From Ostreococcus lucimarinus (lineage: Eukaryota), in NCBI GenBank assembly GCA_000092065.1, contig CP000582.1: a stretch of 64,000 nucleotides of DNA; one strand, 5' to 3'. Position 1 is the first letter of the stretch; each line of letters starts with the position of its first letter. The position numbers and the translations under genes are program-made. Shown here one piece after another: positions 1 through 62,800 of the stretch. The notes under the pieces are model-generated. The model ran no database searches and was not told the DNA's origin. It worked only from the letters and a program-made list of their open reading frames with translations.

Positions 1-1130
1 CAAATTTACATCTCTCCATGTGTGTCCCATCTTCTCTGCGGTTGTGCACGCATGTTGCCCTAGTAGTAGATTGTTCAATTTTCTAAAATGAACCAATGGT
101 GATGTCAATAAAGCGTGACTCATGAGGGCAGACTTGATCAGTGAAATCATACCAGATGCACCATCGAGGTGCCCTAAATTGGTATGTAAACTACCAAATC
201 CTATGTTTGAAGTGCGAGATGGGTCTTCAAAACAGAATATACGCTGGTATGCACCGATTTCTATTGCGTCGCCAAGTGGCTCACCTAGTCCAGATGCTTC
301 TACGAATGCAACGTCTGCTGGTAGTATGTTAGCATCAAGCAGTGCACGGTGCACTTTGTACTCAATTGCCGGTCCTCGAAGCGCTCTGAGCGAAGCGCCG
401 CCGCCTTTATGTATACACGAGGACCCCAGGAGCGTGACAAGCATAAATTTGCTACTGGTGGCTTTGTATGTACAGATCATGACTGCACCGACGCCTTCAC
501 CTCGCTCAAATCCGTCCGCTTGAGCATCAAATGTTTTGCATCGACCATCAGCTGGAAACATCTGACGTGCAATATGTAAATCTGATAATTGTCTGTGAAG
601 TATGATATTCGAACTCGCCGCTATGGAGGAGTTAGCATATTCAGGATCTGATGGCACATTCACTTTAGAAGAACTCGTAGCGAGATGAATACAAACTAAT
701 CCTGACGCAGACGCGCAGTCGATAGAGATAGATTCGCCTTGAAACCCAAATGTGTGACTTATTCGATTCGACGCAAAAGCATACGTCGATTCGGACATAC
801 CATGCGCAATATTTGATAGCTTATCGTGGGCAGAGCAGCCTGAATCTGTGAACATCACACGGAACGCTTCGTCCCTTGCCACAGAATCACTGTCATTCGT
901 ACATATACCTACGTATACTGATATTTTTTGCTCGTAAACGCGCGTACTCTTGTCTGAATATGGTACATCGGTAACTTCATGGCACGCTTTCAGCAACTCG
1001 CGCTGTTGCGGTTCAAGAAGTGATCGAACATCAGATCGGCCAATTCCAAAAAAGTTTGAGTCGAAAACGTCAAGCTGTCTTAGGAACGAGCCGTGCCTAC
1101 TATATTCGTGATAGACAAAATCCCGCTTTC
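1..1130 (-). other. Terminal KS (module 14) at the window edge; active-site-deficient, KS0-like
   Basis: The N-terminus IDRWDVERIFS...FDSNFFGIG and the NLGHLDGASGMISLIKSAL motif are normal. The active site reads GESISIDCASASGLV instead of DTACSSSL, with Ser at the Cys position. The HGTGT position reads VEASGLGEPLGDAIE, with the His lost. The C-terminus lies off the window. Confidence 0.6.
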
Positions 1131-43100: not shown

Positions 43101-46100
43101 CTTGCCAGTCGAACATCACGATGCTTTCAACGAAGCAGCCCACTTTTAAACGTGGGTCGCTTTCTCCAAGTTCATCCGACAAAATGCGCCGTGCTGTTGG
43201 CATGAGGGCAATACTGTCGCAGTTTGCGACGCCCGCTGCCCCATGTGAAGTTCCAGATGACACAGCAAGCACACACTGAAGGTTGGGTTGCACAAATGGT
43301 GCGTTTTGTGGTGAACGACACAGTGCTTCTATCCCGTGCGCTTCGTCACAGCTGTGTTCAACATTTTGCATTAAATATGTGCACAATTTTGAAATGGTGG
43401 GGAAGTCAAATACCAAAGATGGTGCTACTTGCCTGTCGAAGTGTGTCGATATTTTACTGGCTAACTCAATCGCAGATAAAGAATCCAAGCCGGCGTCGTG
43501 GAGGGGGATATCAGGGTCAACATCGAAACCAATCAATGTGCAAACCATCTTATGAAGTAAACTCAGACAGTCCTGGGTGGTGTGACACCGCACGCCTGAC
43601 GTAGTAAACTTTTTCTGACGCTCTAGCGTTGTTTGTTTATCAGCAATTTTCCGAGTGTGCACACTTTGCAAGCCGGTCGTATGTTTCTCAAGTAGCCAAT
43701 CAGCCTTCGTCGAGTCACTGGTGAATGCGTTCTGGCATACGACGAGCACTGCGCCACATGATAGAGGTGCATTTTCTATTCTGCGCATGGTACTTTTCAG
43801 CGCAGCGAGGGCAGTCTTTGGGTCCATGAAGCCAACTCCTAGACGCGACATATTTCGTTCTATGTACTTATTACGGATCGCCATTCCGACCTTCCCCCAG
43901 GCGCCCCATTGAACGCTGCACACAGGGCGACCAGCTGTGTGCTCAAATTGAGCGAGAGTATCCAAGGCAGAATTTGCGCATGAATAATTTGCCTGTCCTG
44001 GTGAACCTATTCGTGCCGTTATGGAAGAAAAGAAAATGGCGCTTAAAAGCGGTTTGCTTGAGTATAGATCAGCGTCAATGGTGAGAACTTTAGGAGCAAA
44101 GACTTCACGAATGCGTGCTGGCGTTTGTCGCAGAAGCAAGGCATCCGATGTACAACCTGCCGCATGAATAAAGCATAATGAATCCACAGCGTATCGATTT
44201 ATCTGTATATTAGTGTGTACGTAGGATTGTACAAACGACACAACGCTGTCACTGTACTGATGCTGTCTTAGCATACAGTTTGTTCGTCCAAAGCGACTCA
44301 TTAGTGTATGTGGTGAGCTGTACCTCATTAGGAAAGTACTAGTGAGTTGCCCTGTAGCTCCTGTTCCTCCCATGATGAAGTAAGACCGATTAAGATCGCA
44401 GGAGGCTATGAATTCACTTTTGTTACGATCGAGCTTGATCTTATGTATTTTGCGATTAGAGCACGCCAACTGTTGAGCAAGAGATTCTTTTAGGCACCGG
44501 TGCAATACATGAAATTTTCTCAGACTTTTGTATTGCGTAAAAGCCTGTAGTAGGATGCTAGAGTGTTGAAACGGCGCATCTTCACCCCGTACAACTAGGG
44601 AAACATTTTCTTTGATGCATTCAGTCTCAGCGCATCGGAACAGTGATGCAAGATACTTGATGGAATTCGTCTCACATAGCTCAACTCGACCTTCCATTTG
44701 CAGCACATAGGCGTGCAATACCATCACCGCATGAGCGACTATTTTTTCACGCATCAGTGATATAAATCGCGCGTGTGCTTGAGTGGTACAAGGTCTTAAG
44801 CTTGTGCTTGGTGAAAATCTTGACACGTACTTGACAATATTGATTCCATTGCTCAAATTATTTTTATGTGGATACCCATTTGCCTTTGTGCGTAGCATTT
44901 TGCATTTCACTTTGAATAACACCACGCAGCCAACCAGATGATTGCCAAGACTCTCACCATGGCTGTCCAATTCAATGTTACAGCGCGTACTTATGCGCCG
45001 CACTGACGTGATCTCAGGAGGAGATGTGCTACAAAACTTTATTATGGTCGGCAGCATCGTCACACACTTTGATACTTTCTGTCCATCTATGACTCCCACA
45101 CTGATCTGCAGAGTCGCGTCAATAATTGAGGGCACATGGCCTGATGTGAAGTTTGTTGATGCAGTCTCAACATGAGCGAGTGCAATGTTCAACCGACGCC
45201 CACTGTCGAAGATCGGGCTCAATGTCTGCGAAGAGAAAACATAAAGTGTGTTGTGTCTATCGCACTTCTTGGATGCATGCTTTATCCTTGCACGACAATG
45301 CTCACCTTGTGAAGTTTCCACTTTGATCGCACCGGTTATGGCGCGGACAGAAACTTCTATACGTTGGTGGTACTGCAAAAGTAATGGCCTCACAATCGCA
45401 AGATCTTGAACCATTGCAGTGTGTAAATCAAATGTACCGCACGCTTGAGCCATGTAATCTATGTACCCAGCCGCTGGAAATAACGGTTTTCCATGGATGC
45501 AATGGTCCGACAGCGCTGGTGTCGGCTGATGGAGGCGCGAAACAATCGAATTGTGGCACACTTTTATCGACGCACCCGAGCTGTGCACTGGAGATGCAAA
45601 CCAGCACTGATTGCAGGAGAATAGCTTGGATGCGACACTATTGCAAGAACAGCCAGAATTTCGTGCTGTCGCCGATAATATCGCGTGAGCGTTTGTACCT
45701 TGAAATGCAAACGAGCTCGTTCCCGTCTTCGCATTTGCTTTATGCACATGCTGGCACGAAGCAGAAGCAGATCGCGGCACAGCAACGTTTGGCTCTTGAG
45801 AGGGATTTATTGACATTGCGTGCCACGCATGTACGTTGAGTAAGCGCATGTGCATTATGCCAGTGTGTCTTTGCATTTCTACGGCACGTGATGCACTTAT
45901 GAGCCCCGCCATACCGGCAGCACATTCAGCGTGCCCCATGTTCGTTTTGATTGCATGCAATCGTAAAGTTTCTGCCTGACCCAAAACAGACATCGCGCCT
46001 CCTACTTCTATGGGGTCACCAAGTGGCGTCCCAGTTCCATGCATTTCAAGGGCCCGCACTTCTAATGGCCGAGTCGAAGCGTTTGCCAGGGCTGATTTGA

Positions 46101-49100
46101 TGACTCTGGTCTGCGATGGTCCATTTGGCGCCGTCAACGAGCTCGTTCGACCGTCTTGATTTACTGCGGTCCCACACAGCCACACGCTCTCGCTATTGAC
46201 ATTCGCGGTTGGACTCAGTAATAATGTATCACAGCTTTCGGCTCGCACGTAACCATCCGCGGCCGCATCGAGCGTCTTGCAGCGGCCATCAGGCGCTAGC
46301 ATACCAGCGCGTAGAAACATGGCCGTCGTAGTCTCGGTGAGGATGAGGTTCACGCCACCCGTTACAGTTGAGTCGCACTCACTCTGAAATACAGATGCCA
46401 CACCGAGATGGACTGCCACAAGGGACGAGGAGCAGGCAGTGTCGATACTCATCGCCGATCCTGTGAGATCGAATGTGAAGCATATCCGTCCAGAAGCGAC
46501 ACTCAACGCTTGTGATGTAGCATCTAGTGCACTTGCGGGGACACTTGTGGTTGTGCGCATGACCTCACCATACTCCATCCAAGCGATTCCAATAAACACA
46601 GAAGTGTGAGATATTGTGTATTTCGGTAGACATAGCGAGCTCACGCAGTGTAGTAGCAGACGCTGCTGTGGGTCCATGCTGATCGCCTCTGCTTTTCCAA
46701 TTCGGAAACCTTGCCAGTCGAACATCACGATGCTTTCAACGAAGCAGCCCACTTTTAAACGTGGGTCGCTTTCTCCAAGTTCATCCGACAAAATGCGCCG
46801 TGCTGTTGGCATGAGGGCAATACTGTCGCAGTTTGCGACGCCCGCTGCCCCATGTGAAGTTCCAGATGACACAGCAAGCACACACTGAAGGTTGGGTTGC
46901 ACAAATGGTGCGTTTTGTGGTGAACGACACAGTGCTTCTATCCCGTGCGCTTCGTCACAGCTGTGTTCAACATTTTGCATTAAATATGTGCACAATTTTG
47001 AAATGGTGGGGAAGTCAAATACCAAAGATGGTGCTACTTGCCTGTCGAAGTGTGTCGATATTTTACTGGCTAACTCAATCGCAGATAAAGAATCCAAGCC
47101 GGCGTCGTGGAGGGGGATATCAGGGTCAACATCGAAACCAATCAATGTGCAAACCATCTTATGAAGTAAACTCAGACAGTCCTGGGTGGTGTGACACCGC
47201 ACGCCTGACGTAGTAAACTTTTTCTGACGCTCTAGCGTTGTTTGTTTATCAGCAATTTTCCGAGTGTGCACACTTTGCAAGCCGGTCGTATGTTTCTCAA
47301 GTAGCCAATCAGCCTTCGTCGAGTCACTGGTGAATGCGTTCTGGCATACGACGAGCACTGCGCCACATGATAGAGGTGCATTTTCTATTCTGCGCATGGT
47401 ACTTTTCAGCGCAGCGAGGGCAGTCTTTGGGTCCATGAAGCCAACTCCTAGACGCGACATATTTCGTTCTATGTACTTATTACGGATCGCCATTCCGACC
47501 TTCCCCCAGGCGCCCCATTGAACGCTGCACACAGGGCGACCAGCTGTGTGCTCAAATTGAGCGAGAGTATCCAAGGCAGAATTTGCGCATGAATAATTTG
47601 CCTGTCCTGGTGAACCTATTCGTGCCGTTATGGAAGAAAAGAAAATGGCGCTTAAAAGCGGTTTGCTTGAGTATAGATCAGCGTCAATGGTGAGAACTTT
47701 AGGAGCAAAGACTTCACGAATGCGTGCTGGCGTTTGTCGCAGAAGCAAGGCATCCGATGTACAACCTGCCGCATGAATAAAGCATAATGAATCCACAGCG
47801 TATCGATTTATCTGTATATTAGTGTGTACGTAGGATTGTACAAACGACACAACGCTGTCACTGTACTGATGCTGTCTTAGCATACAGTTTGTTCGTCCAA
47901 AGCGACTCATTAGTGTATGTGGTGAGCTGTACCTCATTAGGAAAGTACTAGTGAGTTGCCCTGTAGCTCCTGTTCCTCCCATGATGAAGTAAGACCGATT
48001 AAGATCGCAGGAGGCTATGAATTCACTTTTGTTACGATCGAGCTTGATCTTATGTATTTTGCGATTAGAGCACGCCAACTGTTGAGCAAGAGATTCTTTC
48101 AGGCACCGGTGCAATACATGAAATTTTCTCAGACTTTTGTATTGCGTAAAAGCCTGTAGTAGGATGCTAGAGTGTTGAAACGGCGCATCTTCACCCCGTA
48201 CAACTAGGGAAACATTTTCTTTGATGCATTCAGTCTCAGCGCATCGGAACAGTGATGCAAGATACTTGATGGAATTCGTCTCACATAGCTCAACTCGACC
48301 TTCCATTTGCAGCACATAGGCGTGCAATACCATCACCGCATGAGCGACTATTTTTTCACGCATCAGTGATATAAATCGCGCGTGTGCTTGAGTGGTACAA
48401 GGTCTTAAGCTTGTGCTTGGTGAAAATCTTGACACGTACTTGACAATATTGATTCCATTGCTCAAATTATTTTTATGTGGATACCCATTTGCCTTTGTGC
48501 GTAGCATTTTGCATTTCACTTTGAATAACACCACGCAGCCAACCAGATGATTGCCAAGACTCTCACCATGGCTGTCCAATTCAATGTTACAGCGCGTACT
48601 TATGCGCCGCACTGACGTGATCTCAGGAGGAGATGTGCTACAAAACTTTATTATGGTCGGCAGCATCGTCACACACTTTGATACTTTCTGTCCATCTATG
48701 ACTCCCACACTGATCTGCAGAGTCGCGTCAATAATTGAGGGCACATGGCCTGATGTGAAGTTTGTTGATGCAGTCTCAACATGAGCGAGTGCAATGTTCA
48801 ACCGACGCCCACTGTCGAAGATCGGGCTCAATGTCTGCGAAGAGAAAACATAAAGTGTGTTGTGTCTATCGCACTTCTTGGATGCATGCTTTATCCTTGC
48901 ACGACAATGCTCACCTTGTGAAGTTTCCACTTTGATCGCACCGGTTATGGCGCGGACAGAAACTTCTATACGTTGGTGGTACTGCAAAAGTAATGGCCTC
49001 ACAATCGCAAGATCTTGAACCATTGCAGTGTGTAAATCAAATGTACCGCACGCTTGAGCCATGTAATCTATGTACCCAGCCGCTGGAAATAACGGTTTTC

Positions 49101-52100
49101 CATGGATGCAATGGTCCGACAGCACTGGTGTCGGCTGATGGAGGCGCGAAACAATCGAATTGTGGCACACTTTTATCGACGCACCCGAGCTGTGCACTGG
49201 AGATGCAAACCAGCACTGATTGCAGGAGAATAGCTTGGATGCGACACTATTGCAAGAACAGCCAGAATTTCGTGCTGTCGCCGATAATATCGCGTGAGCG
49301 TTTGTACCTTGAAATGCAAACGAGCTCGTTCCCGTCTTCGCATTTGCTTTATGCACATGCTGGCACGAAGCAGAAGCAGATCGCGGCACAGCAACGTTTG
49401 GCTCTTGAGAGGGATTTATTGACATTGCGTGCCACGCATGTACGTTGAGTAAGCGCATGTGCATTATGCCAGTGTGTCTTTGCATTTCTACGGCACGTGA
49501 TGCACTTATGAGCCCCGCCATACCGGCAGCACATTCAGCGTGCCCCATGTTCGTTTTGATTGCATGCAATCGTAAAGTTTCTGCCTGACCCAAAACAGAC
49601 ATCGCGCCTCCTACTTCTATGGGGTCACCAAGTGGCGTCCCAGTTCCATGCATTTCAAGGGCCCGCACTTCTAATGGCCGAGTCGAAGCGTTTGCCAGGG
49701 CTGATTTGATGACTCTGGTCTGCGATGGTCCATTTGGCGCCGTCAACGAGCTCGTTCGACCGTCTTGATTTACTGCGGTCCCACACAGCCACACGCTCTC
49801 GCTATTGACATTCGCGGTTGGACTCAGTAATAATGTATCACAGCTTTCGGCTCGCACGTAACCATCCGCGGCCGCATCGAGCGTCTTGCAGCGGCCATCA
49901 GGCGCTAGCATACCAGCGCGTAGAAACATGGCCGTCGTAGTCTCGGTGAGGATGAGGTTCACGCCACCCGTTACAGTTGAGTCGCACTCACTCTGAAATA
50001 CAGATGCCACACCGAGATGGACTGCCACAAGGGACGAGGAGCAGGCAGTGTCGATACTCATCGCCGGTCCTGTGAGATCGAATGTGAAGCATATCCGTCC
50101 AGAAGCGACACTCAACGCTTGTGATGTAGCATCTAGTGCACTTGCGGGGACACTTGTGGTTGTGCGCATGACCTCACCATACTCCATCCAAGCGATTCCA
50201 ATAAACACAGAAGTGTGAGATATTGTGTATTTCGGTAGACATAGCGAGCTCACGCAGTGTAGTAGCAGACGCTGCTGTGGGTCCATGCTGATCGCTTCTG
50301 CTTTTCCAATTCGGAAACCTTGCCAATCAAAGTTCGACACGTTTCTCAGTTTCCACATCGCGCACGACAAGTTTTCATCAAAGTGATAATAATGATCTGT
50401 TTCGAGAAGCTGTGTCAATTGAGTAGAAACCAGCACGTGTGTTCGCGTAGCTAACAAAAATAGATGATTCTCAGAGTGTTGACGCAATTCGTGTTCAACT
50501 GTCGCGTTCTGTGTCGTCTCCGTAGACTGTCTATATGTTGACTGATCCGTGTTCGTAATAAACGCTGTGATGTCATTGACCGTAGGATAGTCATACAGAA
50601 ATGTTGTCGGTAAGTCAATCTGGAAATACTCACTCATTTCAGCGATTATCACTACTGTCTGTGCTGAAGAAAGTCCCAGTGAATGTATAATCGGCTCATA
50701 CACACATTCAAGTGGAGAAAGTGAATGTGCGCAGCTTTGCAAAGCCTGTAGAACAAGCCATTTATCGTGCTTCTCAACACACTTTTTGGGATGTTTGCCG
50801 GAGAAAGCGCATGTCTGGTTATTTTGATTCGAAGACAGTCGATGTGACGATGGCATTCCAAACAGAAGCACGTCACAAAGAGACGTGACCTGCTCTTTTG
50901 CAATATTGTTATCTTCAACAGTTGGTGCGAGGTCTATATCGCTTCGATATCTTTGTTCGGCAAGCCGAGCACACGGGTACAGTATCGTACCATCGAAAGT
51001 ATCATGCATGTTAGTAACATCTCGTGAATCACTTTTTACGAGTTGGTATGGAGTTCCCGAACAGTTGAAAAAATCCGTCCTCTGTTGAAAGTCTCGCATT
51101 AATGCAAACTTGGAAGCGACTAGCATTTTACCATAATGAAATGGGAGGGTAACAAGTATTGGGCACAGTTTATTGATTTTGGTTTTCGTATCAATCAAGT
51201 CAGTTTGTCTCTCTGCTTCAGCCTCGGCGACGAGAAAAAATATCGAAATACCAGTTGTTGACCCTCCCAGTATGAAACTATCATTATCATTCTCGAGAAG
51301 GAGTCTTATGCGCTCAGCTGGATAAAGCTGTGTATTCAGTCGTTCCACGAATTCAGCCACTTTTGCACGAGTCCATCCACGAAACGCGAACATGTGCACG
51401 CGATTGCAAAGTGACTGATTTCTCAAATCGTTGTCACAAAATACAGTCATATGCCTGACCGTGGACTTTGCCCGAATGGATAACCATAGAAGAAACTTTG
51501 CAATTAATATAGGATACGCCCAGTGCATCCAAGAGTAAGTGAACTTTGCACCAGTCGAAAAAATATTTGAAGAAACTTCCTGTGAGATCCAGCCTTGCGA
51601 GTGCCCGATACTATGGTAGAAAGGTTGAATCTTTCGAAAGAGCAACTTGGAGCTTTTGAGAAACGTACTGAAGTGTACTATGTAGGTCAGTGAAGATGAT
51701 ATCGACGACTCCGCAAATTTATCAATCAATCTTACTTTCATCGGAATTGATTTTGAATAGCATTGTATTCGAATGTGATAGGCATCTGAATTATCGATCG
51801 AGGTTTCATCCAACGCACTGAGACCTTGGCCAGCAAAATTGAATGCATATTCCGTTGACCGTGGCGCAATCTTCGAAACATTATACGAAAAATGCGGTCT
51901 GCGAAGAAGCAGAGATCCATGTCGATAAACTGTTGGATCAAACCGTCTTCTACTCCGCGCCTGTTGAAATAGTTTTGCAGTATGCAAGGTTTCCTCAGGG
52001 CACTTTCCATAACTTTGCATTGAAGCAAAGTAATAGAAGGAGCTCAAATCAACGTCATGATCGAATGCGTCAGTCTGAACACTAAAAAGCTCATCGAAAA

Positions 52101-52257: not shown

Positions 52258-52513
52258 GACCGCCTGTTGATAATCGTAGGAAATTTTTTACACAAGTGAC
52301 GCGATATGGTGCGATGCGATCTGGCGCGCATAGTACGTTTCTGTACTTGTGTAGCATAACGATGTGACAACTGTGCTACTTGATAGGAAATACTTCGGAA
52401 GTACGTAAGCGGGCGAAACTTTTATAGTTCGTGTGTGCCTTAGGAAGCATATTGTCTGCAAGGAAATGATTTAATGTGCTCGTTTTACACTATCTATACC
52501 AAGTAAATGCTAT

Positions 52514-55258
52514 CTAGTCGTAGGTCTTCTTCAGATAGCTGATGATATCGACACTCTCGAATAACGAGATCCCGGTGTTCGGATCTTCAAGATAAGGTAC
52601 TTGAAATATACCGGTGCGATTGAGAAGCAAACTCCTTCTTGGGCTACCGCGTGCACATGGACGAAAAACATAAGAAATTCCCCGCTCGTTCAGAGCTTTT
52701 CGCACTAGAGCGCAAAATGGAGAAGCTTCGTAACCCCAAAAAATCAAAGGCTGCTCACCTGCACGTGAAGTACGCCGATGCGAAGCATCATTGATCTTTG
52801 ACGCTTGAGCGAACCTCTGAAACAATGAGACAAGAGAAGCTGGTTCTTCGCCATCCAGATACTCCTGATAGAGATACTGAATGATGCCGTCAGCACCTTT
52901 CACAGCGATGTCGTCGTTTCGATCATCTCGTAGGAAAGGGACTACTTCAGACCCAAGTTCAACACCCTGTAGAATCGCTAACTCGGAGCTATTCGAACAC
53001 GACGCGGTAGGACACGGTTTGCACAAGTAACTCACGTCACAAATACTCAAAACCTCTCGTACAAGCCGACAGGAGTCGTCATCCTCGACGTCATAAAGTG
53101 TCAGCGTTGGTGGAGCTGGCGTAGCGTCGGCACGTTCTTTGACTGCCTCTCTCAGACGGTGGCTACCAAGCTTGCTGACCTCCAAAAACCGTAGTCCAGC
53201 GCCTCTCACGAAAGCGTACTCTGTAACGTTTTCACGCGCGATGCGTGGGGACCAACCGTGTACAAACAGACCCAAAGCAACTCGAGAGAGCCCTTTCCAA
53301 ACAGCCTCGAGAAGCTCTCCTCGCTGCGACTGTTCGAAGGCAAACATCTTTGGCTCATTAACTTGAAAATTCGCACTGAGTGCTTCAAATGCTACTGCTG
53401 TGTCTTCAAATGTTGCACCTGGGTATTTTAGATCCGCCCGCCACATGCAATGAGCCCCATATGGCACTCTTTCGGGCAGAAGAATTGTTGCTACGGGACC
53501 AGCCTCTACATCTTGTGCATCAATTATGACGCACTCGGTGCGCCCATTAACGTCTGTTGCTGTATAGCTCTCATCATGAACGTACATAACTAACCAGCCA
53601 TCATCTTCATCTACACCTCCTGGTCTTCCAACAAACTGGGCTTCCATACCGTAACGGTTTGGACCATGCTCATAAGTGACCGTCTTCTGCTCTTGCATAT
53701 CAATTTTCACGACTGCGTCAAACTTGAGCTGAGTGGTCGATTCCAACTCTGACAAAAGGACTCGCCCGGCGTAGGCGTACCTGTTTCGCCTTCCAACAAA
53801 TGCGTCGTTGATGCGTGGGGTTTCTAAAGGAATACTAAATAGATATCTTTCTGTGACCTTTCCAGTGACAAGATTTATTCTCCATTCATGAACTTTTGGA
53901 ATCTTGCCAACTCGCACGGCCTCTTTGATCCACTCACTTGAACCGTTAGCGCGCATCGCCTCTTGGAAAAAGCCGTCTTCACGAATTCCAGTAATGACTA
54001 TCAACTGCTCATTCCTTTCATTTTTTTCCTCCCACGAATTGATGAAGTGGTATACCATTTGTGACGAGCTACAATTAAACCAAGTCACGCTTGTTGACTG
54101 TGCATCTCTATTCAACACTCCAAAACGCGCCCGCTTGTCTTCGTTATACTGAAGAGGGTGTTTCCCTAGCAACTGTCGAACAGGCTTGATATCCATGCTG
54201 CCTTCAAAAAGAACCGTAAAATGCTCAGTTACACAGAAATCGTGCATGAAAATGCTACCAACAAACGGGATAGACCAAAGCGAGTTGATGCTCGAGATTG
54301 TACCATCTGGCTTCAACGTACCCACAGAGCAATGTGGCGGTGAGACTGGATTGAAACCAAAGAAAATAAGTTCACCGGTTGACGGTAACACTTTTGGATG
54401 CGCAGTGAAAGGAACGTAAGGAGGTAGTTTGCCATCAAACGTACATGCTGAAATTGTTTCGAGGGTATCTGGATCAAGTTCCCAAGGCGGACAGGTATCC
54501 TGTAGCGCGAACGTCCTACCAGCAAAATGGAGAAGCGCCGTATTTGCACTGTCTTTCATAAACATTCCACCCGTGATGAGGTTGGAAAGTGCATTTGCCA
54601 GAAATGTTCCACCGTCAGCATTCATGAGTGGTCTAAATATGCGTTTTCCGCTTTCAATCTCACGCTTCCAGCTAGACGTCCGAATAAAACGATTTCTAAA
54701 TTTAACTCTGTTGCCAGTGCAAAAGTCTACAGCGTAGATCATACCATCACCCTCGAACCAATGATGCCAGCCTGATCCTAAACCAAAATCTACTTGCCCT
54801 GGACCTGCACCCCAACGCTTGTAGTGATCAACAGCAAACTTTGGATTGGGGCCTACGTACGCGTACTGACCGAGTGGAAAATCGCTTGGAATTTTACCGT
54901 TAATTTTCATCGTCGAAGAATCATCACCAGCTTGCGCATCATAATCGCAACAGGCCGTGACTTCCTGTCCTACCGGATAATAGTTTCCAGAAAGAAAAGC
55001 GGCACCATGTTCGCCGTATTCCACTGGATCTAGAAGTTGATACGACGTAGAAGCGGCGGCAGAAATATAGCCTGTATCCTCATCACTCGAAGGCTGAATT
55101 GAATCTATTTCTTGGATCGTTCTCGTAGACAAATCTGTTTCCGTTTGTACTCGAAGTATAGAGGACACACGCCTTGTCTGCAAACTAAGAAGACAGCTCT
55201 TGCGGCGGTATGTTTTATAGTAGCGCACAGGAGCGTTGTGTGCCGATAGTGAGCCCAT
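52514..55258 (-). CDS. Carotenoid cleavage dioxygenase (RPE65/CCD family) fused to two C-terminal glutaredoxin/GST-N-like thioredoxin-fold domains; 914 aa, intronless
   Basis: Single ORF in the track. CCD His motifs: HWFEGDGMIYAVDF, FTAHPKVLPSTGELIFFG, FMHDFCVTEHFTV, PYGAHCMW. The C-terminus reads ASPFCALVRKALNERGISYVF...IFQVPYLEDPNTGISLFESVDIISYL, a CPFC-type site plus a cis-Pro and ES..I..YL. The N-terminus is basic and hydroxyl-rich, consistent with a transit peptide. Confidence 0.8.
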   Translation of the reverse strand: MGSLSAHNAPVRYYKTYRRKSCLLSLQTRRVSSILRVQTETDLSTRTIQEIDSIQPSSDEDTGYISAAASTSYQLLDPVEYGEHGAAFLSGNYYPVGQEVTACCDYDAQAGDDSSTMKINGKIPSDFPLGQYAYVGPNPKFAVDHYKRWGAGPGQVDFGLGSGWHHWFEGDGMIYAVDFCTGNRVKFRNRFIRTSSWKREIESGKRIFRPLMNADGGTFLANALSNLITGGMFMKDSANTALLHFAGRTFALQDTCPPWELDPDTLETISACTFDGKLPPYVPFTAHPKVLPSTGELIFFGFNPVSPPHCSVGTLKPDGTISSINSLWSIPFVGSIFMHDFCVTEHFTVLFEGSMDIKPVRQLLGKHPLQYNEDKRARFGVLNRDAQSTSVTWFNCSSSQMVYHFINSWEEKNERNEQLIVITGIREDGFFQEAMRANGSSEWIKEAVRVGKIPKVHEWRINLVTGKVTERYLFSIPLETPRINDAFVGRRNRYAYAGRVLLSELESTTQLKFDAVVKIDMQEQKTVTYEHGPNRYGMEAQFVGRPGGVDEDDGWLVMYVHDESYTATDVNGRTECVIIDAQDVEAGPVATILLPERVPYGAHCMWRADLKYPGATFEDTAVAFEALSANFQVNEPKMFAFEQSQRGELLEAVWKGLSRVALGLFVHGWSPRIARENVTEYAFVRGAGLRFLEVSKLGSHRLREAVKERADATPAPPTLTLYDVEDDDSCRLVREVLSICDVSYLCKPCPTASCSNSSELAILQGVELGSEVVPFLRDDRNDDIAVKGADGIIQYLYQEYLDGEEPASLVSLFQRFAQASKINDASHRRTSRAGEQPLIFWGYEASPFCALVRKALNERGISYVFRPCARGSPRRSLLLNRTGIFQVPYLEDPNTGISLFESVDIISYLKKTYD

Positions 55259-56016: not shown

Positions 56017-56862
56017 ATGCGTCCTTGCTCCTCCCAGCCACTTTCGAAACCGCCGTTTGGGAAGGACGGCTTTTCGAAATATTGGACAAAACATCGACCT
56101 TTGAAACTTCCAAAACGTGCTCGGCATGCATGTAGAGTGCTCAGCCCACTGGAGCGCTTAGAAGAACTCGGAACTCGACGTTTTGGTGTCATCTTTGAAC
56201 TTGAAGGTATTATAGTGCCCAGTTGTGCAAAAGCAGACCGAGAAGAGTGGCAACAGATAGCGCGTGAGGAAGGCCTCGAACAACCTGCTGAGTATCAACT
56301 CCGGGCGGCTCTTCGGAAGAAGACAGATCATGCGGTCTCTCGCGTATTCAACTGGGCATCCGAGCCACAGCAAGTGCGGTTCTTGACTCAGCGCAAAAGC
56401 GCACTTTTCTGCAAAAGAACGGAAACCACTGATCACAGAGCCCATGAGCATGTTCTAGCATTTTTGCGGCTACTCGATGGCTTCGACGTGCCCTGTGCTA
56501 TTTATTCTTCACAACTCTCGAGCGAAGAGCTAACAGTTTTGTTGCGTCGTTTGCAACTGACAGGGTACTTCAAGACGGAATCAGTGATAGGTCGTGACGA
56601 CGTACAAAGTGGCTTACCAGACACTGAATACTATTTAGTTGCAGCGCGTGCGCTTTTTCGACCGATCTCCAAATGTATTGTCATAAGTGACCACCACCTC
56701 GCAATCGAAGCTACGACTGAAATAGGAATGAAGTGTGTAATTGTCAATGGCGTCGACTCTACCTGGGAGTTGAGAGGTGCAAACATGGTTGTGCCGTCGT
56801 TAGAGTGGATATCGTTTAGGAACTTACAAAATATTTTTAGCTTAGATGTATACGAAAGTTAG
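56017..56862 (+). CDS. HAD-superfamily hydrolase-like protein (CbbY/beta-phosphoglucomutase-like); motif I is degenerate (FELEG rather than FDxDG)
   Basis: 281-aa ORF. GVIFELEGIIV at the motif I position and KCIVISDHHLAIEATTEIGMKCVIV resembling motif IV. Possible N-terminal presequence. Confidence 0.5.
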   Translation: MRPCSSQPLSKPPFGKDGFSKYWTKHRPLKLPKRARHACRVLSPLERLEELGTRRFGVIFELEGIIVPSCAKADREEWQQIAREEGLEQPAEYQLRAALRKKTDHAVSRVFNWASEPQQVRFLTQRKSALFCKRTETTDHRAHEHVLAFLRLLDGFDVPCAIYSSQLSSEELTVLLRRLQLTGYFKTESVIGRDDVQSGLPDTEYYLVAARALFRPISKCIVISDHHLAIEATTEIGMKCVIVNGVDSTWELRGANMVVPSLEWISFRNLQNIFSLDVYES

Positions 56863-56885: not shown

Positions 56886-58480
56886 TCAATCACCCAGCTG
56901 ACGTTTCGCCAGCACCTTCAGTTGGTGTGTATTAGTCGCGAGAGCACGACAACCGTAGCAACATACCTTTGCACCAAGAAGACCAACGTTTGGAGTTTTT
57001 ACGGCGATCAAGGGGAATGAGGCGACGACATTGCGCATGGAGGGATTGCAGTTTTCGAACGCAGTAGTTAGTGAACCATCCATGAGCAGAGGTAAAATCT
57101 TGGGGGGAATACCACCAGCTATGTACACTCCACCGGTTGCGAGAACGCGTAGGGCAGCACTTGAACACTCCGAACCCTGAATAGAGTCAGATGAAGTCAT
57201 ATTGATGGAGCTTATCGCTTACCAGGATTTCAAGAAACATTTTCAAAGTCGTGCGGCAAGTTTTGCAACTATTTGCAAGTGCCCTTGTTGCAATCTTCAG
57301 CAGTGTTCAGCACGATTGTACTTCAAAGATGCTAAAGAAACTTCACCTCCGCGGGTTCTATGTCATCGGGTTTCGTATGAATTGATTTGCAAAGAAACTC
57401 ATAAATCCTCCTTAGTCCTGGACCACTGCAAACTTGCTCTACTTCACAGACCTACGCAGACACTCAGGTACAAACGCAAAGCTTGAAGCGTACTTTTGAA
57501 TTTTCATACCTTGTAATTTTTTGCCCACATATACTTAAGAAGCTACGACATAATCAGCATGGGATAAATATCATTGTCATCATGCGCAAACCTCGATTTG
57601 AACTTCATTTTTTGGTGCAAACGGTGCATGTGAACCCTGAACACGAGTAAGTGAGTCCCTCTTCGAACTTTTTAGAGACGCACTTCAGTTGAAATAATAG
57701 AATACGCTTCATTTGCGTCGTTCCAGATAAGAAAAGCCTCCTTCGAGATAACAGTTGGTATTTTAATATGCGCTGAAAAGGTACAACACTCACCCCTAGA
57801 CCTGTTCCTGGTCCTACGATGGCTATGGGCCCGTGTTGTCTGTAAGATTGTCATGAGATCATTTATGCGACTGTAGCACCGCATCGTACACTGGTTCGAT
57901 GTCATTCAACTTCGCAAGCTGGGACGGGTCTAAGCCTGTGATTCCGTGACCAACCGCGGCAAAGTCGTTCAGAACAGAAACTTTTGGAATATTAAACGAC
58001 TGCTGTACTTGAGCACCGTTCACTTGCCACTTTAAATTTGTCATCTATGACGAAGCTATTTAGACGAAACTGGTTGATACTTAGACTCAATTTACCTCGC
58101 AGCAGTTGTTTTCTACTGGACCCGCAACGGCGAAACAAGAAGAGTCGAAGTGGTCAAGTCCAGAGTCCTGTGAATGCGTAGTGAGCTTACGACGAAAAGA
58201 GCAGTGTGTTGTCGTACGTGACAGAATACATTTAAACATTTGTCAAACGCGTCGAAGGAATTAGTGCTGTACGTCTAATATCGCGGTGTGAGGCAGCGCA
58301 TTACCAATTATACGACTAAAAAGTACCTTCTCGAACAGTAACTCATCGTCGACGCCTTCCATAGATATTGCCCAAGCCTGTTGGTTGACACGTCTTTCTC
58401 AGCGTAAAGCACTTACGAAACGACAAACCTGGAACCGAGCATTCGTGCCACCGATATCAGCTGCGATTATCGTATAGCTC
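56886..58480 (-). CDS. Glucokinase of the bacterial Glk family (PF02685-like); multi-exon with >=7 short GT-AG introns. Exon boundaries are approximate.
   Basis: Exon peptides match E. coli Glk in order: IIAADIGGTNARFQV (~58440-58480), CFAVAGPVENNCCE, MTNLKW...VLNDFAAVGHGI (57859-58044), IAIVGPGTGLGV (~57795-57840), GSHAPFAPKNEVQIE (~57585-57630), VCEVEQVCSGPGLRRIYEFLCKS...AEVK (~57341-57451), IATRALANSCKTCRTTLKMFLEIL (~57223-57294), and GSECSSAALRVLATGGVYIAGGIPPKILP...GLLGAK (56886-57176). Introns of 46 and 47 nt carry gtaagc..cag and gtttct..aag. The first ATG was not located. Confidence 0.75.
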
Positions 58481-59528
58481 TATTCTATTGGCTTAGTGGC
58501 ATGATTTAAGGGCATATTAAACGTACGTGGCTCATCGTCAACCGTCTACCGGGTTTGTTTGTTTGCGTTCGGTGCGCGAAAGAGACTTGTTTGCAGTTTT
58601 GTAAACGTGAGATGAACTTTCTATGCGTCGACACGTTCGTCCACATGCCGAATTGTCGAAGACGTGCACTTCTGTGAGCGTCGAACGGGTACGCCGCACG
58701 TTTTTGAGCGCGCGGTTTTTTCCGCTAGGCCTGCAGCACTGGGTACAGGAATTTCTGTACCCTTGTACCCTTGTACCTTAAGTTTTGTATGGGCAAACAG
58801 TCTAAAACCAGAGGTTTTGGGTACGTACCAGAAAATTCCTGGTACAGGTCATCTTGAGCCCTCAATATTGTAGCTCGCGCTTCGCGGCGCGAAACGGGGC
58901 GACGGCGGGTGAAATTCACGTCAAGACCGCAAAAAACGCGACGAGCGACGCGCGCGCGAACGCGAGGGCGCGACCGGGGTTTACGAGCGCGGGTTTGCGC
59001 GCGACGTGTTTGAAATTTGAAATGATGATTGAGCAAGCGGCAGACGTCCACGCTCGATGTCGACGTCGAATACCGACGACGCGGGCGCCGCGCCGAGGCG
59101 CGTGGATGACGGTGCGGAAGATAACGCGCTGCGCCCGTGGTGGACGTGCGGCGCGCAGATCCCGTGATAGATGCTGACAGCGATGGTGATGGAATTGGAG
59201 ACGTTGAAATCCTCTCGTCAGACGACGAGAATTTGGATGAGTACGTAAAAGGCCCAGACGAGCTCGTCATGCTACCACGTGTAAACGTTTCGGATCAAAT
59301 GGAAGTACTGCTTCTGGGCAGCCTTGGTGCAAACGTGCCGGTGCGTGATGATGATTCACGTCCCGCTCGGGACAAGACAAAGGAAACTTTTGCACACAAG
59401 GCAGCTTACAAGGTATTAGGACGTCAGGAGAAGGAGCGACGAAGTAAGAGTAGAAAGTTGAATTAATAGATAGACTGTGCGCGCGAAGTGCGTCGGTTCT
59501 CGCGCGGCTCTCGTCGATTCGTCACCTC

Positions 59529-59567
59529 CGTACCAGCTCGTACCAGCTCGTACCAGCTCGTACCAGA
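59529..59567. repeat. (CGTACCAGCT)4 minisatellite within a GTAC-rich spacer
   Basis: Seen directly. Related GTAC-rich inverted repeats lie at 58735-58855. Confidence 0.85.
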
Positions 59568-59744
59568 CGATTCATACTGTTTACCCATACGACTGGCGCG
59601 TTCGGACATTCGGACAGGTACGTGGGTACGTACCGGGAAATCGCGGGTACGGGATTGCTGCACCACTATTTTCCGCGCAAGCGATCGTGCACCACCTTTG
59701 CTTGACACGATTACATATACGCGTAGCGCGTCACCACACGCCAT

Positions 59745-59890: not shown

Positions 59891-62800
59891 GTTGTACTAG
59901 GGATTTCGAAAATAATGTATGAGGGTAAAATAGTGAATTTAATTAACCTCGACGTCTTGTCGCGCCGCTTCGCGCCGCGCGCGCGTCCGGGCGGCGCGGA
60001 GTCTACCGATCTTTCCGCGTATCGTGATATCCGACCGTTTAAGTTTGAATTCTGTGCGTGGGTGTTGACGGAACACGACCGTTGGAGCTCGATGGGCACG
60101 TTAACTTTTGGGCCAGATTCTGTCGCGTATGACGCCCCCTCGCGCGCGCCGAAGCGCGTCTCCGACCGTGTCGACGGCACGGAAAGGTTGTAAGAAGGCT
60201 TCTCAGCGATCTTCAGCCTCGCTGGGAGGAGCAGGGTCAACGACGGCTCCCGCTTGCGACGACGAAGATGGGCGCGCTCAAGTGGCCAAAGATGCTCGTG
60301 AGGTCGCCGTTTCTTTGCTCGCGAACAAACGTCGCCGGGAGGTTTCTGGCCAGGTAATGGCAAAAGTGACAGCTACGACGTTATTCCTCGACACCGTGAG
60401 CTTCAAAACAGAGTTGATAAAACAACACGCGTTCCTGAACCGCGTGAGGAAGCTGCTGAAAGACAAGGATGTGAAGCGAGACGCGCGCGCGTTGGTCACT
60501 GAAGAGTGCGCTTCGACATCAGATCAGTCCGAAAACACTGTGCACGTCACCGCTGATGTCGCACGCACACGCCGTGAAGAGCGGAGCCGAAATCCGCACC
60601 CCTTCTACGTCGAAGTAGTGCATGCATTAAGTCGCGGGGACATCTCGGCGACGCAGGCTGTCCATGAGTTGCAGCAGGTTGGCGTACGAGTCACCAAAGC
60701 GTTTTTGAAACGCGTGTGCACGGCTCAGTCGTTCCGGGATGACATTCCCCATTACTCCGAGTGCGAAGACGGCCGCGGCAGACCAAGTGCACTCAGCAAC
60801 GCATACTTGGACCAGCTCGCAAAAATTGTGAAGCATTACATTCGAGTTGGGATATCACTGAGTCAAGAGACGATTTTGTCGATGGCTAAAAACTTCTATC
60901 GCGACGAGCATCACGCAGATCCTTCTGATAAAACGTTCGGATCCGCGTGGTTCTATCGATTTCTCAATCGCCATGGCATTGACACTTCTCTGTACAATCC
61001 CCAGGATGCCTTGAGACTCAACGCCGCAACGGAGCACAACGTCAGCAATTACTACCAGCGCGTGGCCCAAACAGCAGTCAGTAATGGCTTCGCGACATGG
61101 AATGCCGACTTCGACGCGAACGATAGGAGTAGTGAGATGATCATTTGGAACGAAGAAAAGAAGAGCCGCGTGTTCACGTTCGACGAGGCGAAGGTGATGC
61201 TTGCCTATGAGAAAGGCGTGCGCGGAGTGAGAATGTTGGTCATCAAGGGCGAAGACAACCGCAGATCGGCTGTCACAGCGAACGATGCATTCGCAGCATC
61301 CGTCATGGGATGTAGAAACCTCGCTGGCGAGTCCTTGGCGCCTTACTTTGTGTGCACGACGCAGCCAAATGTCGAAGATGGTTTTGAAATCCCTGGAACT
61401 ATCACCGATACGACGACGGGTGCGTGCCAACAAGCCCAATGGATACGAGGAACGAAGAAGGGTTCATTCGACGGATTCGCATTCGCGACTTGGCTGAAGG
61501 ATCATCTCGCGCCGTGTGTTCCCGATTTGTCGCCGGAGAATCCGGCCATGGTGATTTGTGACGGATGTTATGCTCACACAGTCGACGAGGTGCTTGAGAT
61601 TTGTGCAGCAATGGGGATTCTCATGGTCATTCTGCCGCCTCATTGCACGCATATCCTGCAAGGCGAAGATTTGTACCACTTTGGTGTGTTTAAAGGTGCG
61701 TTTCGCGTCGAGCGTGCTGAAATCGAAGCGATGAAACAACTCGCCGCCGCGTGGTTCATCAAGCTCTTCGAGAACGGCGTCGCTACTTCTTTCGGACAGC
61801 GAGAGTTTTGGTACGCGGTTAAGGAGGCATGGAAAGGCGCTTGGACGAAACAGGCTGTCGAGAAAGGATTTAAAATGCAAGGATTGGTCCCTTTTAATCG
61901 AGCTCCACTCTGGAAAAACTTCCCGAACCATGAACGCAAGGAGCCGCAGCGCTCGACACCGGACAAGGAATCTCAAGTTGAAGCTGCCGAGCGGTGCGTT
62001 GAGCGCATGTCCATACCAGGAGCGCCCGGACTGCGAGTTATCGCACAATCTAGCGACTCGACATTCGATGTGACGTTTGATGGTAGTCCAGAGTCGTTCG
62101 CACGGGCGCCCCTGAACATGATGAAGCTGGACGAAGTGTACAAGAGCCTTGTTGAAAATCCGAGTAACCATAGTATGAACGACGAGCACTTGAACGTTAT
62201 GAAGCAGCTCATTCTCGAAAAGCAAGAAAACATCACAAAGAACATCGTGACGACGACCCGGAAACAGAGAAGTACACGCAGACACGATCGCTATGATGAA
62301 GCGACTGCTCCAGCCATGGCCCGCCTGCTCGCCGCTCGACAGAAGAGAGAGAAAACGAAGAAGAGAACGCACGACGCAGCTCAAGATGGATGCGACGCTC
62401 GGTTCAAGGACAACACGGATGATATTCAATTTCTTGCGGCGCTTCATAAACGCCTGGACGACAACGGATCACTCGAGAAATCTCTTACAAGAGCTGAACT
62501 CATGAAGGTGATGCGCGCGAAGCGAATTCCACTGCCACAAGGACCGACCGCTGATATCTTGAGAGATAAGTTGAAAGAGGTTGACGAGCGGCTCTATGAA
62601 GCAAACATAGAATGTACAAGAGTTGCGAACGCGCGGTGGCCCAAAAGAGCACGTCACGCGTCGTCAGTCGACGATGCAAACGTAAGGTGCGAGGTGAAGT
62701 ACCATCCAAGTGGCGTCCGAGTACAACTTATAACGGACTAAAAGAACACGTGAAAGACTCGAACACACAACCGGGCTGCAAATATCGATAGAAAACACTA

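What the first reader, a model, noticed from the sequence alone, without database searches (positions are those of the whole stretch)
56886..58480. Intron-dense bacterial-type glucokinase next to intronless megagenes
At least seven GT-AG introns, most of them about 46-47 nt, interrupt a roughly 330-aa Glk-family gene. The 52-kb PKS, the 2.7-kb CCD fusion and the transposase ORF show none where I sampled.

This contrast could reflect different acquisition histories (e.g. horizontal transfer or retro-origin of the PKS and CCD), or selection against introns in very long repeats.

The very short intron size is itself a lineage signature.
Basis: partly seen in the sequence, partly recalled or inferred. 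Interest (0 to 1): 0.5.

Follow-up and report, generated by a model that had tools for sequence, protein, structure and literature searches.

The report
Known short-intron glucokinase gene of Ostreococcus
This is the already-annotated glucokinase gene of the tiny marine green alga Ostreococcus lucimarinus. It is split by 13 very short introns of a kind already described for the low-GC part of chromosome 2, so the contrast with its intron-free neighbours is real but ordinary for that region.

Summary
The minus-strand gene at 58646..56886 has 14 exons and 13 GT-AG introns of 46-58 nt (median 51). The spliced product matches Pfam Glucokinase end to end (E=1e-91).

Three spliced transcript contigs with 100%-identical exons remove exactly these introns. 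The giant PKS is one stop-free frame of 52,287 nt. The CCD-GST fusion, HAD gene and transposase are also single ORFs.

Exact protein look-ups place the window in Ostreococcus lucimarinus CCE9901, on an 895-kb record. At about 46% GC against 60% genome-wide, this is the low-GC "BOC1" region of chromosome 2. Its many 40-65 nt, signal-poor introns have been described since 2006. RefSeq XP_001416380.1 already carries these 13 introns.

New here:
- All 13 positions and phases recur in a second Ostreococcus-like species, and 12 recur in Bathycoccus.
- Only one position matches Volvocales.
- 12 of 13 are phase 0, which is unexplained.

The transfer or retro-origin reading is not supported. All neighbours share the Glk GC3, the CCD fusion is green-lineage, and most genes in this genome lack introns. 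Verdict: already known, low interest.

The parts
56886..58646 (-). Glucokinase gene: CDS of RefSeq XP_001416380.1 (A4RT47), 367 aa, 14 exons. An in-frame ATG at 58535 would give a 330-aa core.

Exons: 58646-58527, 58479-58429, 58377-58327, 58274-58218, 58167-58096, 58044-57890, 57839-57794, 57740-57684, 57636-57592, 57542-57510, 57451-57347, 57294-57223, 57176-56967, 56915-56886.
   Evidence: - Spliced alignment of P0121 to the window scores 1782 and covers residues 1-367.
- Pfam PF02685, E=1e-91, one stretch.
- TIGR00749 scores 249 bits against a cut-off of 225.
- E. coli Glk 1Q18, E=1.6e-48.
58480..58526 (-). Intron 1: 47 nt, phase 0, GT-AG.
   Evidence: Removed in L001 and L003, retained in L002. 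Same position in Ostreococcus sp. 2.
58378..58428 (-). Intron 2: 51 nt, phase 0.
   Evidence: Removed in L001, L002 and L003. Position shared with sp. 2 and Bathycoccus.
58275..58326 (-). Intron 3: 52 nt, phase 0.
   Evidence: Removed in all three transcript contigs. Shared with sp. 2 and Bathycoccus. It is the only position that also matches Gonium and Volvox exactly.
58168..58217 (-). Intron 4: 50 nt, phase 0.
58045..58095 (-). Intron 5: 51 nt, phase 0.
57840..57889 (-). Intron 6: 50 nt, phase 2. This is the only intron that is not phase 0.
   Evidence: The same phase 2 is found in sp. 2 and Bathycoccus.
57741..57793 (-). Intron 7: 53 nt, phase 0.
57637..57683 (-). Intron 8: 47 nt, phase 0.
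57543..57591 (-). Intron 9: 49 nt, phase 0.
57452..57509 (-). Intron 10: 58 nt, phase 0.
57295..57346 (-). Intron 11: 52 nt, phase 0.
57177..57222 (-). Intron 12: 46 nt, phase 0.
56916..56966 (-). Intron 13: 51 nt, phase 0. Its length is a multiple of 3 and it has no in-frame stop, so retention adds 17 aa.
   Evidence: Removed in L003. Retained in L001 and L002, which gives protein P0001. Position shared with sp. 2 and Bathycoccus. Retention analysis.
1..52287 (-). Giant type I modular PKS, probably OluPKS3. It is one stop-free frame of 17,429 codons that runs off the window, with no frame-breaking intron.
   Evidence: - Stop-free frame.
- KS, KS_C, DH, KR, ACP and condensation domains.
- Tandem modules 99.8-100% identical, with periods of 3609 and about 3701-3702 nt.
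- GC3 0.44.
52514..55258 (-). Carotenoid cleavage dioxygenase (RPE65) + GST_N fusion, 914 aa, single ORF. It equals XP_001416379.1 (A4RT45).
   Evidence: GC3 0.43.
56017..56862 (+). HAD-family phosphatase-like gene, 281 aa, single ORF. It equals XP_001416137.1. It is convergent with Glk, with 23 nt between the two stop codons.
   Evidence: Collinear with transcript contigs L001 and L003.
60108..62741 (+). pogo/Tc5-like DDE transposase ORF, 877 aa, uninterrupted. It lies in a 3.2-kb segment (59898-63128) that a different 1.35-kb segment replaces in haplotype L008.
   Evidence: GC3 is 0.59, unlike its neighbours.

Best explanation
**What it is (shown).** The window comes from the low-GC "BOC1" part of the big outlier chromosome, chromosome 2, of the picoalga Ostreococcus lucimarinus CCE9901. 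The feature is its nuclear glucokinase gene. This is a Glk/ROK-type hexokinase of the kind common in bacteria but also widespread in green algae.

The gene is cut by 13 "BOC1 introns". These are singleton spliceosomal introns of about 50 nt with GT-AG ends, weak 5' sites and no shared branch-point motif. They are precisely removed from the mRNA. The active-site motifs are intact:
- DIGGTN
- N-D of NDF
- E-x-x-H
- GGVYIAGG

**Age of the structure (shown).** The intron-dense structure is old and stable. All 13 positions and phases recur in a second Ostreococcus-like species at 58% protein identity. Twelve recur in Bathycoccus at 48% identity. The intron sequences themselves share no recognisable similarity.

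**Why the neighbours differ (inferred).** Intron content in BOC1 appears to be a gene-specific legacy, not a mark of foreign origin.
- Long-standing core residents of the region, such as Glk and the nearby gamma-tubulin, keep a set of introns acquired before the Ostreococcus-Bathycoccus split.
- The CCD-GST and HAD genes kept the intron-free default of this streamlined genome.
- The PKS is continually rebuilt by duplication or homogenisation of intron-free modules.
For: **Identity of the window**
- The HAD, CCD-GST and Glk products equal XP_001416137.1, XP_001416379.1 and XP_001416380.1 of O. lucimarinus, on an 895,087-bp record.
- Window GC is 0.44-0.54, against 60% for the genome (PMC3491373, Table 1).

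**Splicing and function**
- Splicing is shown by L001, L002 and L003.
- The spliced product matches Glk fully.

**Intron class**
- Lengths are 46-58 nt. Intron GC is 0.419 against exon GC 0.469.
- None of the 13 has ACTGAC, and the 5' site is only GT-A-N-G-like.
- The introns show no similarity to one another.
- This matches the published description of chromosome-2/BOC1 introns: 40-65 bp, AT-rich, no conserved signals, many per gene (PMC3491373, PMC3879977, PMC2483917, PMC2367439).

**Conservation**
- Positions and phases are conserved across species.
- An orthologue at 42% identity on a 70%-GC contig is one uninterrupted ORF.

**Neighbours**
- GC3 is equal across Glk, HAD, CCD and PKS.
- CCD-GST homologues are green-lineage single ORFs. 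One lies on a 48.8%-GC contig.
- PKS module copies are 99.8-100% identical. Giant PKS genes are reported as a conserved, structurally unstable BOC1 feature (bioRxiv 10.1101/2025.04.21.649811; PMC4661987).
- 103 of 214 Bathycoccus BOC1 genes carry introns, so mixed neighbourhoods are normal (PMC3491373).
Against: - The explanation of the contrast as "legacy of residence time" rests on few genes: Glk, gamma-tubulin, CCD, HAD and one PKS.
- The organisms behind contigs L006, L013 and L018 could not be named. Their assignment to BOC1 or to the standard genome is by GC alone.
- I did not check the published BOC1 coordinates of O. lucimarinus chromosome 2, because Palenik 2007 is not held.
- No RNA evidence was examined for the PKS itself. 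An occasional intron whose length is a multiple of 3 and that lacks a stop would be invisible in the frame test.
- The strong phase-0 excess (12 of 13) is not explained by this account. It is also not explained by protosplice-site availability.
Confidence: 0.85

Rival explanations
1. The PKS and the CCD fusion lack introns because they entered the genome differently, by horizontal transfer from bacteria or by retro-copying of an mRNA. Glk is an old resident.
For: - Multimodular type I PKSs are bacterial in style.
- An ancient bacterial origin of chlorophyte PKSs has been discussed as one possibility (PMC4661987).
- Both genes are single ORFs.
Against: - Their GC3 (0.44 and 0.43) equals that of Glk (0.465) and HAD (0.45). 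Only the transposase differs, at 0.59.
- CCD-GST fusion homologues occur as full-length ORFs at 42-66% identity in many related algal contigs, including O. mediterraneus. The next relatives are plant CCD1. Bacterial hits are no closer (one at 34%, covering the dioxygenase part only).
- The Ostreococcus PKS clusters with Micromonas and other chlorophyte PKSs (PMC4661987).
- 80% or more of O. lucimarinus genes have no intron (PMC2367439), so lacking introns marks nothing.
- Glk itself is the "bacterial-type" gene of the set.
Confidence: 0.07
2. The PKS is intron-free because of its repeat structure. Frequent module duplication, gene conversion and unequal crossing-over start from an intron-free module and would erase or never fix introns. 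Alternatively, selection disfavours hundreds of splice events in a transcript longer than 52 kb.
For: - There are two sets of tandem modules, 99.8-100% identical over as much as 5 kb.
- Large structural variation of these PKS loci is reported within and between species (bioRxiv 10.1101/2025.04.21.649811).
- Module duplications are reported in OluPKS3 (PMC4661987).
Against: - It explains only the PKS, not the equally intron-free CCD-GST and HAD genes.
- The non-repeated parts of the PKS are also uninterrupted.
- Selection against splicing was not tested.
Confidence: 0.3
3. The Glk introns are a recent invasion by mobile intron-generating elements (introners), as in Micromonas pusilla.
For: Uniform short length and high density. 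Introners exist in a related genus (PMC3879977).
Against: - The 13 introns are no more alike than shuffled controls. Mean local score is 6.7 against 6.6.
- The positions predate the Ostreococcus-Bathycoccus split.
- Introners are reported to be depleted in BOC1 (bioRxiv 10.1101/2025.04.21.649811).
Confidence: 0.02
4. The fragments are pseudo-exons of a decayed glucokinase gene, and the GT-AG pattern is coincidental.
For: None beyond the fragmented look of the ORFs.
Against: - Three independent spliced transcript contigs exist.
- The spliced product gives a full-length HMM match.
- Catalytic motifs are intact.
- Exon structure is conserved in three species.
Confidence: 0.01

Closest known systems
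BOC1 introns of Mamiellales: the short introns of the low-GC region of Ostreococcus chromosome 2 (Derelle 2006 and Palenik 2007 as cited in PMC2367439; Irimia & Roy 2008, PMC2483917; Moreau 2012, PMC3491373; Verhelst 2013, PMC3879977)
   Same: - Same genome region and size class (46-58 nt against the published 40-65).
- Lower GC than the flanking exons.
- GT-AG ends with a weak 5' site, no ACTGAC branch motif, singleton sequences and many per gene.
- Transcript-confirmed.
- Positions conserved between related species.
   Different: Nothing essential. In O. lucimarinus the intron-exon GC drop is small (0.42 against 0.47). Five of the 13 exceed the 43% GC limit that was defined for Micromonas. 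The near-exclusive phase 0 placement was not found discussed in the literature I could search.
RefSeq gene model XP_001416380.1 / UniProt A4RT47, 'Glucokinase', O. lucimarinus CCE9901
   Same: It has the same 13 introns and the same protein as my independent model, plus a 37-aa N-terminal extension.
   Different: Transcript contigs add isoform detail. Intron 13 or intron 1 can be retained. One transcript contig, L003, lacks a 951-nt stretch of the window (59668-58718) upstream of the start codon and has an open frame running further upstream.
E. coli glucokinase Glk (PDB 1Q18/1SZ2; PF02685, TIGR00749)
   Same: - Full-length homology, E=1.6e-48.
- Same N-terminal DxGGTN motif.
- Same NDF aspartate, E-G-x-H and GGxxIAGG motifs.
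   Different: This is a eukaryotic nuclear gene with 13 introns and an N-terminal extension. Its nearest relatives are other Mamiellophyceae-like and green-algal Glk proteins, not any particular bacterium.
Introner elements of Micromonas pusilla CCMP1545
   Same: Many short introns in a Mamiellophyceae gene.
   Different: Introners are repeat families and evolutionarily recent. The introns here are unrelated singletons and ancient.

Membership tests
BOC1 introns (Mamiellales) | Located in the low-GC sub-region of the big outlier chromosome (chromosome 2 in O. lucimarinus) | tested here: met
   - The proteins equal O. lucimarinus RefSeq entries on an 895,087-bp record.
- Window GC is 0.44-0.54, against a 60% genome average (PMC3491373).
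- Chromosome 2 is named as the BOC (PMC7016971, PMC8557840).
- The exact published BOC1 boundaries were not checked.
BOC1 introns (Mamiellales) | Short: 40-65 bp, or under 75 nt in the Micromonas definition | tested here: met
   All 13 are 46-58 nt.
BOC1 introns (Mamiellales) | AT-rich relative to the exons (under 43% GC in the Micromonas definition) | tested here: inconclusive
   Pooled intron GC is 0.419 against exon GC 0.469. Eight of 13 are below 0.43 and five are at 0.44-0.49. The threshold was set for a genome of 64-65% GC.
BOC1 introns (Mamiellales) | GT-AG ends but weak 5' site and no conserved branch-point motif, unlike ACTGAC in standard introns | tested here: met
   None of 13 has ACTGAC and one of 13 has CTGAC. 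5' site positions 3-6 are variable. This agrees with PMC2483917.
BOC1 introns (Mamiellales) | Singletons with no sequence similarity to one another, and many per host gene | tested here: met
   Pairwise local scores equal those of shuffled controls. There are 13 introns in 1.1 kb of CDS.
BOC1 introns (Mamiellales) | Really spliced out of transcripts | tested here: met
   L001, L002 and L003 junctions are exact.
Glucokinase, Glk family (PF02685 / TIGR00749) | Full-length profile match above the curated cut-offs | tested here: met
   PF02685 scores 307.7 bits against a cut-off of 22.1, covering positions 1-313 of 314. TIGR00749 scores 249.4 bits against 225.45.
Glucokinase, Glk family (PF02685 / TIGR00749) | ATP- and glucose-binding motifs (DxGGTN; Asn/Asp of NDF; Glu-x-x-His; Glu of the SAER region; GGxxIAGG) | tested here: met
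   All are aligned and conserved against E. coli Glk 1Q18. Their assignment as catalytic residues comes from my knowledge of the E. coli structure.
Glucokinase, Glk family (PF02685 / TIGR00749) | ATP-dependent glucose phosphorylation activity | not testable with these tools
   Needs an enzyme assay.
Introner elements | Introns belong to a repeat family | tested here: not met
Recently transferred (foreign) gene, applied to the PKS and CCD | Composition deviates from resident neighbours | tested here: not met
   GC3 is 0.44 and 0.43, against 0.465 and 0.45 for Glk and HAD.
Recently transferred (foreign) gene, applied to the PKS and CCD | Closest relatives lie outside the host's own lineage | tested here: not met
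   CCD: the relatives are Mamiellophyceae-like fusions, then plant CCD1. PKS: not tested here. The literature places it with chlorophyte PKSs (PMC4661987).

The most novel reading that the evidence does not exclude
The Glk introns may record a single ancient burst of intron gain.
- They are frozen in position across Ostreococcus and Bathycoccus.
- Twelve of 13 lie exactly between codons.
- Only one matches a Volvocales intron.
- AG| site availability does not explain the phase bias.

The burst would have been confined to the ancestral non-recombining (mating-type) region of Mamiellales and made by a codon-aware or phase-0-biased process. If so, intron load could serve as a clock for how long a gene has lived in BOC1. 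Intron-free neighbours such as the PKS, CCD-GST and HAD would then be later arrivals or rebuilt genes.
Probability: 0.2. Interest if true: 0.45.

Novelty: already known. Interest (0 to 1): 0.2.

Why it matters
It matters little as a discovery. The gene, its 13 introns and the class of intron are already in RefSeq and in papers from 2006 to 2013. Giant PKS genes as BOC1 residents are described in a recent preprint.

The case is a clean, transcript-verified example of two splicing regimes inside one 13-Mb genome. It also shows that these odd introns can be held in place over the whole Ostreococcus-Bathycoccus divergence.

Two things could feed the open question of where BOC1 introns came from and why they persist only there. 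One is the unexplained phase-0 excess. The other is the stable gene-by-gene difference in intron load. Both would first need a genome-wide test.

Tried and rejected
- **ORF-maximising splice search.** A naive GT-AG search gave a wrong 8-intron model with frame errors. I replaced it with a homology-guided model and a protein-to-genome dynamic-programming aligner.
- **PKS self-comparison.** Self-BLASTP of the PKS returned nothing usable. Nucleotide megablast was used instead.
- **Literature.** Palenik et al. 2007 is not held, so BOC1 boundaries and GC were taken from other papers.
- **Organism names.** Contigs L006, L013 and L018 could not be named from cluster members. They are described by GC only.
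- **Tubulin guides.** Alpha- and beta-tubulin guides fitted the neighbouring tubulin gene poorly. A gamma-tubulin guide written from memory fitted well, scoring about 1250. One exon junction near HGGG|AGNNW remains out of frame, possibly because of a non-canonical or very short intron. Its phase count of about 8 in 11 is therefore approximate.
- **Protosplice explanation of phase 0.** AG| sites in the CDS fall 22, 26 and 11 in phases 0, 1 and 2, so this explanation is rejected.
- **Introner origin.** Rejected.
- **Pseudogene.** Rejected.
- **Ancestral retention of green-lineage introns.** Largely rejected for this gene. Only 1 of 13 positions is shared exactly with Gonium and Volvox. Four of the 8 Volvox introns lie within about 2.5 alignment columns of an Ostreococcus one. 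By my own rough estimate, not a tool result, this is only marginally more than chance, with P near 0.05 (positions).
Full report
**1. What is in the sequence**

The flagged interval lies on the minus strand. Reading it with an E. coli Glk sequence in mind gave a model with 14 exons and 13 GT-AG introns.

My protein-to-genome aligner placed RefSeq protein XP_001416380.1 (P0121) on the window with exactly the same 13 introns. Lengths are 47, 51, 52, 50, 51, 50, 53, 47, 49, 58, 52, 46 and 51 nt. The CDS runs 58646..56886.

Only three introns are 46-47 nt and the median is 51.

The spliced core matches Pfam Glucokinase positions 1-313 of 314 in a single stretch, E=1e-91. It exceeds the TIGR00749 cut-off. 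It aligns end to end with E. coli Glk 1Q18, E=1.6e-48, with the DIGGTN, NDF, E-G-x-H and GGVYIAGG motifs conserved.

**2. Direct evidence of splicing**

The closest database protein, P0001, comes from short assembled contigs of public sequencing runs. All three contigs have exons 100% identical to the window.

| Contig | Run | Introns removed |
|---|---|---|
| L001 | SRR17264714 | 1-12 |
| L002 | SRR28369150 | 2-12 |
| L003 | SRR28326232 | all 13 |

Intron 13 is the only one whose retention keeps the frame open. It is 51 nt with no in-frame stop. It is retained in L001 and L002, which yields a variant with 17 extra residues. The other 12 would truncate or frameshift the protein if retained.

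**3. The neighbours**

- The minus strand from 52287 to 1 is one stop-free frame of 17,429 codons that leaves the window.
  - It carries repeated KS, DH, KR and ACP domains and one condensation domain.
  - It has two sets of tandem modules 99.8-100% identical over as much as 5 kb.
- In Glk only 1 of 13 introns would be invisible to a frame test, so this frame excludes all but perhaps one or two such introns.
- The RPE65+GST_N fusion (914 aa), the HAD gene (281 aa) and a Tc5/DDE_1 transposase (877 aa) are single ORFs.
- HAD is collinear with the transcript contigs.

**4. Where the window comes from**

Exact-sequence look-ups identify the HAD, CCD-GST and Glk products as XP_001416137.1, XP_001416379.1 and XP_001416380.1 of Ostreococcus lucimarinus CCE9901. 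They lie on a record of 895,087 bp.

The window has 44-54% GC, against 60% for the genome (PMC3491373). Chromosome 2 is this species' "big outlier chromosome", with a low-GC block called BOC1 (PMC7016971, PMC8557840).

Published descriptions of BOC1:
- Confirmed chromosome-2 introns of O. lucimarinus show almost no shared branch motif and a weak GTRNGT 5' site. Introns elsewhere carry GTGCGTG and ACTGAC (PMC2483917).
- The EST survey reports a maximum of 13 introns in one transcript. Chromosome 2 holds 40% of all confirmed introns (PMC2367439).
- In Micromonas they were named BOC1 introns. They are singletons, and 73% of their positions are shared between two species (PMC3879977).
- Giant PKS genes are reported as a conserved, structurally unstable BOC1 feature (bioRxiv 10.1101/2025.04.21.649811). 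OluPKS3 has 14 modules with duplicated copies (PMC4661987).

The Glk introns fit this class:
- Lengths are 46-58 nt.
- Pooled GC is 0.419, against 0.469 for the exons.
- None has ACTGAC.
- They show no similarity to one another beyond shuffled controls.

**5. What I could add**

| Source | Identity to O. lucimarinus Glk | Locus GC | Introns | Match to the 13 O. lucimarinus positions |
|---|---|---|---|---|
| Second Ostreococcus-like species (L013) | 58% | 0.436 | 13 | all 13 positions and phases |
| Bathycoccus prasinos (L004) | 48% | 0.377 | 14 | 12, including the single phase-2 intron |
| Unnamed 1.45-Mb contig (L006) | 42% | 0.70 | 0 | one uninterrupted ORF |
| Gonium pectorale, Volvox africanus | not stated | 0.68, 0.51 | 7-8 (63-1076 nt) | 1 exact match |

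The intron sequences themselves are not recognisably conserved between species. The set therefore predates the Ostreococcus-Bathycoccus split, is not a recent invasion, and is mostly not inherited from the common ancestor shared with Volvocales.

Twelve of 13 introns are phase 0 (binomial P=0.0017 against 0.5). AG| sites in the CDS are not enriched in phase 0 (22, 26 and 11 in phases 0, 1 and 2), so this stays unexplained.

A gamma-tubulin gene about 3 kb upstream in the transposon-free haplotype carries about 11-12 introns of 47-53 nt, roughly 8 of 11 in phase 0. One junction of that model is unresolved.

**6.

Evidence against different acquisition histories:
- GC3 is 0.44 (PKS), 0.43 (CCD), 0.45 (HAD) and 0.465 (Glk). 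Only the transposase differs, at 0.59.
- The CCD-GST fusion has full-length, single-ORF homologues at 42-66% identity across many related contigs, including O. mediterraneus. The next relatives are plant CCD1 at about 30%. Bacterial hits are no closer (one at 34%, covering the dioxygenase part only).
- One homologue lies on a 48.8%-GC contig. This is the standard-genome GC reported for Bathycoccus, so the gene is probably outside BOC1 there. That hints the gene moved into or out of BOC1 while staying intron-free.
- Only 16-20% of O. lucimarinus genes have any intron (PMC2367439). About half of Bathycoccus BOC1 genes have none (PMC3491373). The unusual gene is Glk, not the PKS.

For the PKS, recent duplication or homogenisation of intron-free modules may add to this. 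Selection against introns was not tested.

**7. Verdict**

The explanation is a known one: BOC1 introns in an annotated gene. The horizontal-transfer reading is not supported. The position conservation and the phase-0 excess are small additions that need a genome-wide test.

Noticed in passing
window 56886-58646 (Glk introns); L013 3505-5175; L004 5992-7916: Twelve of 13 introns lie in phase 0, and the same holds in two other species. AG| protosplice sites in the CDS are not enriched in phase 0 (22, 26 and 11 in phases 0, 1 and 2). I did not find this discussed in the searchable literature.
   Followed up: partly
window 58718-59668 (minus strand, upstream of Glk): A 951-nt stretch is absent from transcript contig L003.
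- It does not have GT-AG ends.
- It is flanked by the direct repeat GCGGAAAA.
- Its ends look like imperfect inverted repeats (TAGTGGTGCAGCA... / ...TGCTGCAGGCCTA).

This looks like a small non-autonomous DNA transposon insertion, and the 8-bp duplication is hAT-like. It may be polymorphic between strains.
   Followed up: partly
window 59898-63128: The 3.2-kb segment carrying the pogo/Tc5-like transposase is present in metagenome contigs L007 and L010. In L008 (GCA_014466335.1) an unrelated 1.35-kb segment with a 227-aa ORF replaces it. The 5' part of transcript contig L001 does not match the window and carries a 230-aa ORF, so it may hold that segment (not checked). The transposase GC3 (0.59) resembles the standard genome rather than BOC1.
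   Followed up: partly
window 56916-56966 and 58480-58526: Intron retention appears in assembled transcripts. Intron 13 (in frame, 17 aa) is retained in L001 and L002. Intron 1 is retained in L002. The Glk and HAD stop codons have only 23 nt between them on opposite strands, and the contigs join both genes. Antisense HAD 3'-UTR reads may therefore have favoured the unspliced path in assembly.
   Followed up: partly
window 3584-12263 and 39656-50325: The PKS holds two arrays of near-identical modules, 99.8-100% identical, with periods of 3609 nt and about 3701-3702 nt. The second alignment contains a 1-nt gap although the frame stays open throughout. This may be a boundary effect.
   Followed up: no
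window about 28954-30207 (minus strand): A condensation (NRPS-type C) domain is embedded in the PKS. No acyltransferase domain was listed in the 10,000 residues scanned, which is consistent with a trans-AT hybrid architecture.
   Followed up: no
L008 10096-12071; L013 1316-1912: A gamma-tubulin gene with about 11-12 introns of 47-53 nt lies a few kb upstream of Glk in both Ostreococcus-like haplotypes, so the adjacency is conserved. The downstream neighbours (HAD-CCD-PKS) differ between species. One junction near HGGG|AGNNW could not be modelled with GT-AG.
   Followed up: partly
window 58756-58763: An 8-nt tandem copy difference (GTACCCTT-type repeat) separates the window from transcript contig L001. 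Contig L003 shows an 8-nt mismatched block at 58636-58643. The RNA therefore came from slightly different strains.
   Followed up: no
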